Below, in pieces: positions 12,001-15,000 of a DNA stretch of 64,000 bases; the first letter of the stretch is position 1, and the number at the start of each line of letters is the position of its first letter. Location: NCBI RefSeq assembly GCF_030013205.1, contig NZ_CP122648.1; one strand, written 5' to 3'. The position numbers were made by a program. This DNA is from Escherichia coli. Lineage in GTDB: Bacteria > Pseudomonadota > Gammaproteobacteria > Enterobacterales > Enterobacteriaceae.

Positions 12001-15000
12001 ATTTTCAGGGGACAGAATCACTGAATACGCTGCGTGATCGTATCACCCAGATCAACGGCATTGACGAAGTGCGGATGGATGACAGCTGGTTTGCCCGTCT
12101 GGCGGCGTTAACCGGGCTGGTCGGGCGCGTTTCCGCGATGATCGGCGTGTTGATGGTGGCAGCAGTGTTTCTCGTCATCGGCAACAGTGTGCGTCTGAGC
12201 ATCTTTGCTCGCCGTGACTCCATTAACGTGCAGAAACTGATTGGTGCGACGGATGGTTTCATCCTGCGCCCGTTCCTGTACGGAGGCGCATTGCTGGGAT
12301 TTTCTGGCGCATTGCTGTCATTAATTTTGTCAGAAATTCTGGTACTGCGTTTGTCATCGGCGGTTGCGGAAGTGGCACAGGTTTTCGGAACAAAGTTTGA
12401 TATCAATGGCTTATCGTTCGATGAATGCCTGCTGTTGCTGCTGGTATGCTCGATGATTGGCTGGGTGGCAGCGTGGCTTGCCACGGTACAACATTTACGC
12501 CACTTTACGCCTGAATAATAAAAGCGTGTTATACTCTTTCCCTGCAATGGGTTCCGTAGCAGGGAAAGAGACCCCGTTGTCTCTTCCCGGTATTTCATCT
12601 CTATGTCACATTTTGTGCGTAATTTATTCACAGCGTTGCATTGAACTTGTGGATAAAATCACTGTCTGATAAAACAGTGAATGATAACCTCGTTGCTCTT
12701 AAGCTCTGGCACAGTTGTTGCTACCACTGAAGCGCCAGAAGATATCGATTGAGAGGATTTGAATGACTGACAAAATGCAAAGTTTAGCTTTAGCCCCAGT
12801 TGGCAACCTGGATTCCTACATCCGGGCAGCTAACGCGTGGCCGATGTTGTCGGCTGACGAGGAGCGGGCGCTGGCTGAAAAGCTGCATTACCATGGCGAT
12901 CTGGAAGCAGCTAAAACGCTGATCCTGTCTCACCTGCGGTTTGTTGTTCATATTGCTCGTAATTATGCGGGCTATGGCCTGCCACAGGCGGATTTGATTC
13001 AGGAAGGTAACATCGGCCTGATGAAAGCAGTGCGCCGTTTTAACCCGGAAGTGGGTGTGCGCCTGGTCTCCTTCGCCGTCCACTGGATCAAAGCAGAGAT
13101 CCACGAATACGTTCTGCGTAACTGGCGTATCGTCAAAGTTGCGACCACCAAAGCGCAGCGCAAACTGTTCTTCAACCTGCGTAAAACCAAGCAGCGTCTG
13201 GGCTGGTTTAATCAGGATGAAGTTGAAATGGTGGCCCGTGAACTAGGCGTAACCAGCAAAGACGTACGTGAGATGGAGTCGCGTATGGCGGCACAGGACA
13301 TGACCTTTGACCTGTCTTCCGACGACGATTCCGACAGCCAGCCGATGGCTCCGGTGCTCTATCTGCAGGATAAATCATCTAACTTTGCTGACGGCATCGA
13401 AGATGATAACTGGGAAGAGCAGGCGGCAAACCGTCTGACCGACGCGATGCAAGGTCTGGACGAGCGTAGCCAGGATATCATCCGCGCGCGCTGGCTGGAT
13501 GAAGACAACAAGTCCACGTTGCAGGAACTGGCTGACCGTTACGGTGTTTCCGCTGAGCGTGTGCGCCAGCTGGAAAAGAACGCGATGAAAAAACTTCGCG
13601 CTGCCATTGAAGCGTAATTTCCGCTACTCAGCAGAGAACCCTGGATGAGAATCCGGGGTTTTTGTTTTTTGGGCCTCTGCAATAATCAGTTTCCCCCTCC
13701 GGCAAAACGCCAATCCCCACGCAGATTGTTAATAAACTGTCAAAATAGCTATTCCAATATCATAAAAATCGGGTATGTTTTAGCAGAGTATGCTGCTAAA
13801 GCACGGGTAGTCATGCATAAAACGAAATAAAGTGCTGAACAACAACATCACAACACACGTAATAACCAGAAGAATGGGGATTCTCAGGATGAATATAAAG
13901 GGTAAAGCGTTACTGGCAGGATGTATCGCGCTGGCATTCAGCAATATGGCTCTGGCAGAAGATATTAAAGTTGCAGTCGTGGGCGCGATGTCTGGTCCGG
14001 TGGCCCAGTACGGTGACCAGGAGTTCACTGGCGCAGAGCAGGCAGTAGCGGATATCAATGCTAAAGGCGGCATTAAAGGCAACAAACTGCAAATCGTAAA
14101 ATATGACGATGCCTGTGACCCGAAACAGGCGGTTGCGGTGGCGAACAAAGTCGTTAACGACGGCATTAAATATGTGATTGGTCACCTCTGTTCTTCATCA
14201 ACGCAGCCAGCGTCAGACATCTATGAAGATGAAGGCATTTTAATGATCACCCCAGCGGCAACCGCGCCGGAGCTGACCGCCCGTGGCTATCAGCTGATCC
14301 TGCGCACTACCGGCCTGGACTCCGACCAGGGGCCGACGGCGGCGAAATATATTCTTGAGAAAGTGAAACCGCAGCGTATTGCTATCGTCCACGACAAACA
14401 GCAGTACGGCGAAGGTCTGGCGCGTGCGGTGCAGGACGGCCTGAAGAAAGGCAATGCTAACGTGGTGTTCTTTGATGGTATCACCGCTGGGGAAAAAGAT
14501 TTCTCAACGCTGGTGGCGCGTCTGAAAAAAGAGAATATCGACTTCGTTTACTACGGCGGTTATCACCCGGAAATGGGGCAAATCCTGCGTCAGGCACGCG
14601 CGGCAGGGCTGAAAACTCAGTTTATGGGGCCGGAAGGCGTGGCTAACGTCTCGCTGTCTAACATTGCGGGTGAATCAGCGGAAGGACTGCTGGTGACCAA
14701 GCCGAAGAACTACGATCAGGTTCCGGCGAACAAACCCATTGTTGATGCGATCAAAGCGAAAAAACAGGACCCAAGCGGCGCATTCGTCTGGACCACCTAC
14801 GCCGCGCTGCAATCTTTGCAGGCGGGTCTGAATCAGTCTGACGATCCGGCTGAAATCGCCAAATACCTGAAAGCGAACTCCGTGGATACGGTGATGGGGC
14901 CGCTGACCTGGGATGAGAAAGGCGATCTGAAAGGCTTTGAGTTCGGCGTATTTGACTGGCACGCCAACGGCACGGCGACCGATGCGAAGTAATCATTAAT

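What the first reader, a model, noticed from the sequence alone, without database searches (positions are those of the whole stretch)
12636..12670. rpoH control region: sigma-E promoter with an overlapping consensus DnaA box
GAACTT-N16-TCTGA with a perfect TTATCCACA on the opposite strand within the spacer links envelope stress (sigma-E) and DnaA to heat-shock sigma expression. This is known for E. coli rpoH but is directly readable here and appears intact.
Basis: partly seen in the sequence, partly recalled or inferred. Interest (0 to 1): 0.25.

Follow-up and report, generated by a model that had tools for sequence, protein, structure and literature searches.

The report
Known rpoH sigma-E promoter with DnaA box
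This is the well-studied control region of the E. coli heat-shock sigma factor gene rpoH, where an envelope-stress (sigma-E) promoter is overlapped by a binding site for the replication initiator DnaA; it is intact here, strongly conserved, and already known.

Summary
GAACTT (12643-12648), a 16-nt spacer and TCTGA (12665-12669) lie 94-120 nt upstream of the rpoH start codon (12763). A perfect DnaA box, TTATCCACA, is on the minus strand at 12648-12656. It shares one base with the -35 hexamer, so it is not wholly inside the spacer. The window is E. coli (ftsYEX-rpoH-livJ). It differs from K-12 at four bases in 290, none of them in either motif. The same DNA also reads as a CRP site and as the -35 of a sigma-70 promoter. 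The 33-nt core is fixed in 5,422 of 5,425 E. coli genomes apart from one T/G spacer site. Across 11 Enterobacteriaceae genera, 24 of 27 positions in the promoter block are invariant. The sigma-E promoter is old and is found across Gamma- and Betaproteobacteria. The DnaA boxes were seen only in Enterobacteriaceae. Published work already shows that sigma-E uses this promoter, that DnaA represses rpoH, and that DnaA binds here weakly in vivo. Verdict: real, intact, already known, low interest.

The parts
12624..12632 (+). Second DnaA box, TTATTCACA (fits TTATNCACA), inverted relative to box 1 and 15 bp from it
   Evidence: It is conserved across 11 genera as (T/C)T(A/G)T(T/A/G)CACA. Its fifth base varies, and that base is the N of the consensus. 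6 of 9 positions are invariant. That Wang & Kaguni 1989 described two boxes is from my memory.
12635..12642 (+). GTTGCATT, a possible CytR half-operator; K-12 has CTTGCATT here
   Evidence: Sequence. The CytR octamer consensus is from my memory, not tested. PMC3454398 reports a CRP-CytR-CRP cassette at rpoH in close relatives. This is the variable part of the region.
12643..12648 (+). Sigma-E promoter P3, -35 hexamer GAACTT
   Evidence: Invariant in all 12 aligned Enterobacteriaceae sequences. Equivalent GGAACTT-type elements lie upstream of rpoH across Gamma- and Betaproteobacteria.
12648..12656 (-). DnaA box 1, perfect TTATCCACA; overlaps the last base of the P3 -35 hexamer and the first 8 bases of the spacer
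   Evidence: the only perfect match in the window. Perfect in 10 of 11 genera; Buttiauxella has one mismatch. 8 of 9 positions invariant. It is part of the DnaA-bound sequence reported by ChIP-seq in K-12 (PMC11317965).
12648..12663 (+). CRP-like site TGTGGATAAAATCACT (TGTGA-N6-TCACA, 8 of 10 half-site bases), centred at 12655.5
   Evidence: Read from the sequence. The half-sites TGTGG and TCAC are invariant across genera, and 12657-12658 in the N6 centre vary freely. The CRP consensus and the published CRP dependence of P5 (Nagai 1990; Kallipolitis & Valentin-Hansen 1998) are from my memory. CRP and CytR are listed as rpoH regulators in PMC9032294.
12647..12675 (+). Candidate sigma-70 promoter P4: TTGTGG-N17-TAAAAC; its -35 lies inside DnaA box 1
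   Evidence: Inferred from the sequence and from my recollection that P4 starts about 80 nt upstream of the ATG. It falls below the consensus scanner's threshold. The -10 part is not conserved in the more distant genera.
12665..12669 (+). Sigma-E promoter P3, -10 element TCTGA
   Evidence: Invariant, with invariant 16-nt spacing, in all 12 sequences.
12675..12677 (+). Inferred P3 transcription start, 6-8 nt after TCTGA, giving a 5' UTR of about 87 nt
   Evidence: Inferred from typical sigma-E promoter geometry. No start-site data could be retrieved.
12682..12690 (+). Conserved extended -10, TGaTAACCT (TGnTAnnnT), candidate P5; the CRP-like site would be centred at about -41.5 from its start (about 12697)
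   Evidence: T12682, G12683, T12685, A12686 and T12690 are invariant across genera. The assignment to P5 is an inference.
12763..13617 (+). rpoH coding sequence (284 aa, sigma-32)
   Evidence: annotated as rpoH in matching E. coli genomes.

Best explanation
Window 12624-12697 is the core of the E. coli rpoH regulatory region. RNA polymerase carrying sigma-E recognises GAACTT-N16-TCTGA (promoter P3) and starts transcription about 87 nt upstream of the rpoH start codon. Envelope stress thereby raises sigma-32 mRNA. DnaA binds the perfect box on the opposite strand. That box covers the junction of the P3 -35 hexamer and spacer, and also the -35 of the neighbouring sigma-70 promoter P4. A second, inverted box lies 15 bp upstream. 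Bound DnaA physically blocks polymerase at P3 and P4, so it represses them. The same bases also form a CRP site that serves the downstream promoter P5, so several regulators compete for one roughly 30-bp stretch. Shown here: the motifs, their geometry, orthology with K-12, and strong purifying selection. Taken from the literature for the K-12 allele: sigma-E dependence, DnaA binding and repression. Inferred: the start site, the occlusion mechanism, and that the window's T12663 allele behaves like K-12's G allele.
For: The motifs and their rarity are shown. The locus lies between ftsX and rpoH and is 98-99% identical to K-12. The 33-nt core is fixed in 5,422 of 5,425 E. coli genomes, except for T/G at 12663. 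Across 11 Enterobacteriaceae genera the -35 hexamer, the -10 element and the spacing are invariant, and box 1 is perfect in 10 of 11. The P3 block is invariant at 24 of 27 positions, against 65 of 214 elsewhere (p = 5e-9). Positions 12653-12656 (ATAA) are conserved although they lie in the sequence-neutral centre of the CRP site, which argues for selection on the DnaA box itself. Box 2 varies at the consensus N. Literature: E-sigma-E transcribes rpoHP3 in vitro (PMC3490749). rpoHP3::lacZ is the standard sigma-E reporter (PMC1312014). DnaA binds and represses rpoH (Wang & Kaguni 1989, cited in PMC8203912). DnaA ChIP-seq gives a peak upstream of rpoH (PMC11317965).
Against: In vivo DnaA occupancy at rpoH is the lowest of the 16 ChIP-seq peaks, at 4x control. 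The site lacks a good partner box at the 2-3 bp spacing that study found necessary. The proposed partner matches 4 of 9 positions and is unconstrained outside its overlap with the -35 hexamer (1 of 5 invariant). Perturbing DnaA-ATP levels or DnaA titration left most of the DnaA regulon unchanged at the protein level (PMC12371093). Conservation of TGTGG could be due to the CRP site or the P4 -35 rather than to DnaA. No start-site or binding data exist for this window's allele. I could not read the primary 1987-1989 papers.
Confidence: 0.85

Rival explanations
1. The sigma-E promoter is real, but the DnaA box matters little physiologically. On this reading the TGTGGATAA sequence is maintained mainly because it forms the left half of the CRP site for P5 and the -35 of P4, and DnaA binding is a weak by-product.
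For: rpoH gives the weakest ChIP-seq peak, at 4x control, and has no properly spaced partner box. The DnaA regulon was largely unchanged when DnaA-ATP or titration was perturbed. The half-sites TGTGG and TCAC are invariant, as a CRP site would require.
Against: Positions 12653-12656 (ATAA) are invariant or nearly so, yet they lie in the N6 centre of the CRP site, where CRP imposes little sequence constraint. The adjacent 12657-12658 vary freely. A second box at 12624-12632 is conserved with variation at the consensus N. DnaA-dependent repression has been published.
Confidence: 0.25
2. The boxes serve mainly as one of many chromosomal titration sites for DnaA and not as a transcriptional operator.
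For: PMC12371093 suggests that boxes in promoter regions could contribute to titration.
Against: Only one perfect and one near-consensus box are present, and occupancy is low. Titration does not explain why the box is placed exactly over promoter elements and kept there across 11 genera.
Confidence: 0.08
3. The motifs coincide by chance and have no function.
For: None beyond the shortness of the motifs.
Against: Shuffles predict 0.02 matches for the composite sigma-E pattern. The P3 block is invariant at 24 of 27 positions across 11 genera, against 65 of 214 in the rest of the intergenic region (p = 5e-9). There is direct published biochemistry.
Confidence: 0.01

Closest known systems
E. coli K-12 rpoH regulatory region: promoters P1, P3 (sigma-E), P4 and P5, with two DnaA boxes (Erickson et al. 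1987; Erickson & Gross 1989; Wang & Kaguni 1989)
   Same: It is the same locus. The flanking genes are the same (ftsX upstream, rpoH downstream). 286 of 290 aligned bases are identical, including every base of the -35 hexamer, the -10 element and both DnaA boxes.
   Different: There are four substitutions. T replaces G at 12663, in the spacer 2 nt before TCTGA and at the last base of the right half of the CRP-like site. GCG replaces AGC at 12635-12637, which removes K-12's AAGCTT and gives GTTGCATT. The window's states match those of other genera, so they look ancestral. They are carried by only about 9% of complete E. coli genomes.
DnaA-repressed promoters with 'double DnaA boxes' (dnaA, mioC, nrdA, purH, polA; PMC11317965)
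   Same: A consensus TTATCCACA box is placed over promoter elements, and DnaA is bound in vivo.
   Different: The well-bound sites have two boxes in the same orientation, 2-3 bp apart. At rpoH the candidate partner matches 4 of 9 positions and is not conserved. The conserved second box is inverted and 15 bp away. This fits rpoH having the weakest ChIP signal.
RpoE/ECF02-type promoters upstream of rpoH in other proteobacteria (for example the Bordetella bronchiseptica fam promoter, PMC3490749)
   Same: GGAACTT-N16/17-TCnnA lies roughly 70-200 nt upstream of rpoH. SigE-dependent transcription has been shown in vitro for Bordetella.
   Different: Outside the Enterobacteriaceae there is no DnaA box at this position. 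Instead, 37 of the 89 sequences scanned (window plus 88 loci) carry a near-perfect CIRCE (HrcA operator), often overlapping the -10 element in a fixed register.

Membership tests
Sigma-E (RpoE, ECF02) dependent promoter | -35 element GGAACTT-like | tested here: met
   GAACTT at 12643-12648. It is invariant across 11 genera, and 7 of the 10 other genera have the full GGAACTT.
Sigma-E (RpoE, ECF02) dependent promoter | -10 element TCnnA (TCTGA, TCAAA) at a spacing of 16 +/- 1 nt | tested here: met
   TCTGA at 12665-12669 with a 16-nt spacer. Both are invariant across genera.
Sigma-E (RpoE, ECF02) dependent promoter | Transcription start about 6-8 nt downstream of the -10 element, dependent on sigma-E | not testable with these tools
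   No start-site data could be retrieved. For the K-12 allele, in vitro transcription by E-sigma-E and reporter use are published.
Sigma-E (RpoE, ECF02) dependent promoter | Conserved upstream of the orthologous gene in related genomes | tested here: met
   Found upstream of rpoH in Enterobacteriaceae and in many Gamma- and Betaproteobacteria.
DnaA box operator | 9-mer matching TTATNCACA | tested here: met
   A perfect TTATCCACA at 12648-12656 (-) and TTATTCACA at 12624-12632 (+).
DnaA box operator | Overlap with core promoter elements, so that binding can occlude polymerase | tested here: met
   Box 1 overlaps the junction of the P3 -35 hexamer and spacer. It also overlaps the inferred P4 -35.
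DnaA box operator | Pair of boxes 2-3 bp apart in the same orientation ('double DnaA box', PMC11317965) | tested here: inconclusive
   The partner listed by the paper (TTCAATGCA, reverse complement of 12638-12646) matches 4 of 9 positions. Outside its overlap with the -35 hexamer only 1 of 5 positions is invariant.
DnaA box operator | DnaA occupancy and repression | not testable with these tools
   Published for K-12: a ChIP-seq peak at 4x control and repression (Wang & Kaguni 1989). Nothing is available for this allele.
DnaA box operator | Sequence constraint beyond that explained by overlapping sites | tested here: met
   ATAA at 12653-12656 is conserved within the N6 centre of the CRP site, whereas 12657-12658 vary. 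Box 2 varies at the consensus N.
Orthologue of the K-12 rpoH control region | Same flanking genes and near-identical sequence | tested here: met
   The gene order is ftsY-ftsE-ftsX-rpoH-livJ. 286 of 290 bases are identical. The region is present in 5,425 of 5,426 E. coli genomes.
CIRCE / HrcA operator (considered for the inverted repeat at 12659-12680) | TTAGCACTC-N9-GAGTGCTAA | tested here: not met
   The best CIRCE score in Enterobacteriaceae upstream regions is 10-12 of 18, against 14-18 of 18 in the 37 distant loci that carry the element. The right arm of the repeat is invariant at only 2 of 7 positions across genera.

The most novel reading that the evidence does not exclude
The sigma-E promoter of rpoH may be an ancient, fixed scaffold on which different lineages have installed different repressor sites. 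In many Beta- and Gammaproteobacteria an HrcA/CIRCE operator overlaps the -10 element in a fixed register. In Enterobacteriaceae, which lack HrcA, DnaA boxes and CRP/CytR sites occupy the -35 and spacer instead. On this reading the DnaA box is a family-specific replacement for a lost chaperone-feedback operator. The imperfect inverted repeat over the E. coli -10 and start site (12659-12680) could be a remnant of CIRCE.
Probability: 0.25. Interest if true: 0.35.

Novelty: already known. Interest (0 to 1): 0.12.

Why it matters
The site connects three systems: envelope stress (sigma-E), replication and cell-cycle status (DnaA), and cytoplasmic protein folding (sigma-32). It is also the promoter used worldwide as the sigma-E activity reporter. 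Nothing about its presence here is new. This analysis adds three modest points. The whole -35 to -10 block is almost frozen across 11 Enterobacteriaceae genera, in a pattern that separates constraint from DnaA and from CRP. The conserved second DnaA box is not the partner proposed in the recent ChIP-seq study. And K-12, the strain on which all experiments were done, carries derived bases at two polymorphic sites in the operator region.

Tried and rejected
Primary papers: I tried to read a Wang & Kaguni 1989 paper by PubMed id, and Zahrl 2006 (PMC1595493). Neither is held.

Start site: I looked for an experimental P3 start coordinate in the supplements of three genome-scale studies (PMC3415461, PMC1312014, PMC3923258) and found nothing usable.

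Consensus scan: the sigma-70 and terminator scan gave only a weak hit inside the rpoH start region and a 'terminator' on the minus strand at 12680-12659. That 'terminator' is simply the inverted repeat over the P3 -10 and start site, not a plausible terminator.

Inverted repeat as a CIRCE remnant: I rejected this. It scores 10-11 of 18 against CIRCE, and its right arm is poorly conserved.

Rfam: no RNA family was found in the rpoH region.

DnaA-like box cluster: five one-mismatch boxes cluster at 50542-50860. They lie in AT-rich DNA and in a fimbrial subunit gene, so the cluster is probably compositional.

Sampling: the genome-contig scan returned few Enterobacterales. Yersinia, Serratia, Erwinia and named Salmonella or Klebsiella were still not sampled, so the exact node at which the DnaA boxes arose is not fixed.

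Full report
**Observation.** Reading the window directly gives GAACTT at 12643-12648, a 16-nt spacer at 12649-12664 and TCTGA at 12665-12669. The composite pattern occurs once in the 64-kb window, and shuffles predict 0.02 matches. The only perfect TTATCCACA in the window lies on the minus strand at 12648-12656. It shares T12648 with the -35 hexamer, so 8 of its 9 bases are in the spacer. One search also shows TTATTCACA on the plus strand at 12624-12632. This fits the degenerate DnaA consensus TTATNCACA, is inverted relative to box 1, and lies 15 bp from it.

**Context.** The ORFs are ftsY, ftsE, ftsX (ending at 12518), rpoH (12763-13617) and livJ, all on the plus strand. The 321-nt stretch around the finding matches 5,425 of 5,426 complete E. 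coli genomes at 95.8% identity or more, always between annotated ftsX and rpoH. Against K-12 MG1655, 286 of 290 aligned bases are identical. The differences are GCG for AGC at 12635-12637 and T for G at 12663. None of them touches the -35 hexamer, the -10 element or either DnaA box.

**What is published.** rpoHP3 is the standard sigma-E-dependent promoter. It is used as a lacZ reporter (PMC1312014) and is transcribed in vitro by E. coli E-sigma-E and by Bordetella SigE holoenzyme (PMC3490749). DnaA binding to the rpoH promoter and repression of it is attributed to Wang & Kaguni 1989 in a DnaA review (PMC8203912) and in two recent papers. A 2024 ChIP-seq study found DnaA upstream of rpoH in vivo, but as the weakest of 16 peaks, at 4x control. 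It lists the bound sequence tTTATCCACAagTTCAATGCAa, which is the reverse complement of window 12637-12658. That paper's Methods name NC_000913.2 as the reference. Its rpoH peak coordinate (3,600,944) lies 161 bp upstream of the rpoH start codon in NC_000913.3 coordinates, which is where the boxes are. [quoted passage not shown] A proteomic study found that changing DnaA-ATP levels or DnaA titration left most of the DnaA regulon unchanged (PMC12371093). So the feature and its interpretation are already known, and there is real doubt about how much the DnaA input matters physiologically.

**Variation within E. coli.** The window's exact 61-nt haplotype is in 476 genomes and K-12's is in 3,744. 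The 33-nt core at 12640-12672 is exact in 478 genomes with T at 12663 and in 4,944 with G. That totals 5,422 of the 5,425 genomes carrying the region. The only common polymorphism in the core is this one spacer base. A few fetched variants differ mainly at 12635-12637 (GCG, AGC or AAC) and outside the core.

**Conservation across genera.** The genome-contig scan with RpoH returned 80 loci, from Enterobacter and Citrobacter out to the Betaproteobacteria. Eight more Enterobacteriaceae genera were added through protein look-ups. In the alignment of 12 sequences from 11 genera:
- GAACTT, TCTGA and the 16-nt spacing are invariant.
- Box 1 is perfect in 10 of 11 genera; Buttiauxella has one mismatch.
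- Box 2 reads (T/C)T(A/G)T(T/A/G)CACA. Its first base is T or C (C in 7 of 12 sequences), and its fifth base varies at the position where the consensus is degenerate.
- Within the spacer only 12657-12658 vary freely.
- The P3 block is invariant at 24 of 27 positions, against 65 of 214 in the rest of the intergenic region (p = 5e-9).

The invariant TGTGG and TCAC flank a variable centre, which reads as a CRP site, TGTGG-N6-TCACT. It is centred 41.5 bp upstream of the start expected from a conserved extended -10 (TGnTAnnnT at 12682-12690). I take this to be the catabolite-sensitive promoter P5; that assignment is from my memory of Nagai 1990 and Kallipolitis & Valentin-Hansen 1998 and is not verified here. 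ATAA at 12653-12656 lies in the CRP centre, where CRP needs no particular sequence, yet it is conserved. That argues for selection on the DnaA box itself. By contrast, the partner box proposed in the ChIP-seq paper (12638-12646) is unconstrained outside its overlap with the -35 hexamer (1 of 5 invariant). The conserved second site is therefore box 2. All ten other genera have T at 12663, and several have xCGTTGCA at 12634-12640. The window's alleles therefore look ancestral and K-12's derived.

**Deeper phylogeny.** A GGAACTT-N16/17-TCnnA promoter lies upstream of rpoH in many Gamma- and Betaproteobacteria. DnaA boxes at this position were seen only in Enterobacteriaceae. Photorhabdus, Acerihabitans, Vibrio, Pasteurellaceae and more distant taxa lack them. 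Instead, 37 of the 89 sequences scanned (the window plus 88 loci) carry a CIRCE element matching at least 14 of 18 arm bases, against 1 of 445 shuffles. In at least 17 of them CIRCE starts exactly 7 nt before the sigma-E -10. CIRCE upstream of rpoH has been reported (PMC545781, which cites Permina & Gelfand 2003). I did not find the fixed overlap with the sigma-E -10 described in the searchable library. The Bordetella fam promoter paper does not mention it, although L075 shows it.

**Mechanism.** The best-supported account is as follows. E-sigma-E starts at P3, which links envelope stress to sigma-32 synthesis. DnaA bound to box 1, probably helped by box 2, sterically blocks polymerase at P3 and at the overlapping sigma-70 promoter P4. 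CRP, with or without CytR, uses the same DNA for P5. The motifs, their geometry and the selective constraint are shown here. Sigma-E dependence, DnaA binding and repression are taken from the literature on the K-12 allele. The start site, the occlusion step and the equivalence of the T and G alleles are inferred.

**Verdict.** The feature is already known and interest is low. The comparative results add small refinements, not a discovery.

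Noticed in passing
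window 12663 and 12635-12637: The window carries T at 12663 and GCG at 12635-12637, where K-12 has G and AGC. Other genera share the window's states, so they look ancestral. Only about 9% of complete E. coli genomes carry them (478 against 4,944 for the core). K-12, the strain used in the experiments, therefore has the derived operator alleles. The GCG allele gives GTTGCATT, which I recall as the CytR octamer.
   Followed up: partly
L021, L027, L028, L031, L036, L038-L040, L046, L048-L050, L052-L054, L056, L058-L070, L072, L074-L078, L080, L081 (about 50-180 nt upstream of rpoH): A near-perfect CIRCE/HrcA operator (TTAGCACTC-N9-GAGTGCTAA) lies upstream of rpoH in 37 distant Gamma- and Betaproteobacterial loci. 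In at least 17 of them the sigma-E -10 'TC' is the last two bases of the left CIRCE arm. CIRCE at rpoH is published, but I did not find this fixed overlap described.
   Followed up: partly
window 12659-12680: The inverted repeat TCACTGT-N8-ACAGTGA spans the P3 -10 element and the inferred start site. It is perfect with the window's T12663 and has one mismatch in K-12. Its right arm is poorly conserved across genera, so it is probably not functional. It does not score as CIRCE.
   Followed up: yes
window 12605-12617: GTCACATTTTGTG, a near-palindrome (CACA-N3-TGTG), is almost invariant across 11 genera. Together with box 2 it forms a conserved block (21 of 28 invariant, p = 1.5e-5). It may be part of the distal CRP/CytR cassette. 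It is not assigned.
   Followed up: no
window 12536-12568: A perfect 10-bp inverted repeat, CTTTCCCTGC-N13-GCAGGGAAAG, lies just after a conserved TATACT (12530-12535, probably the P1 -10). The arms are conserved across genera, and the loop varies in sequence and length. No T-run follows, so it is not a typical intrinsic terminator.
   Followed up: no
window 15100-16457 (- strand): Two ORFs of an IS3-family insertion element (NCBIfam transpos_IS3, E = 4e-89) lie just downstream of livJ. K-12 has panZ next to livJ and no IS at this position.
   Followed up: partly
window 50170-53866: A chaperone-usher fimbrial gene cluster (major subunit at 50652-51233, usher at 51275-53866) follows glgP, preceded by about 480 bp of very AT-rich DNA. 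Five one-mismatch DnaA-like boxes cluster at 50542-50860, probably because of base composition.
   Followed up: partly
window 33317-33381 and 57229-57271: Rfam matches above the gathering score: RyhB sRNA (83 bits) and ES036/CssrF sRNA (44 bits).
   Followed up: no
L082 (E. coli DCE7), aligned to window about 12717: This strain has a 9-bp insertion (TTGCTACCA, apparently a tandem duplication) in the rpoH 5' untranslated region downstream of all the promoters, plus one substitution nearby.
   Followed up: no
L018 (Vibrio hannami), 103 nt upstream of rpoH: A perfect TTATCCACA lies on the minus strand at a similar distance from rpoH as in E. coli. Two other Vibrio species have TTATGCATA at the aligned position. 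It could be an independent DnaA box or chance.
   Followed up: no
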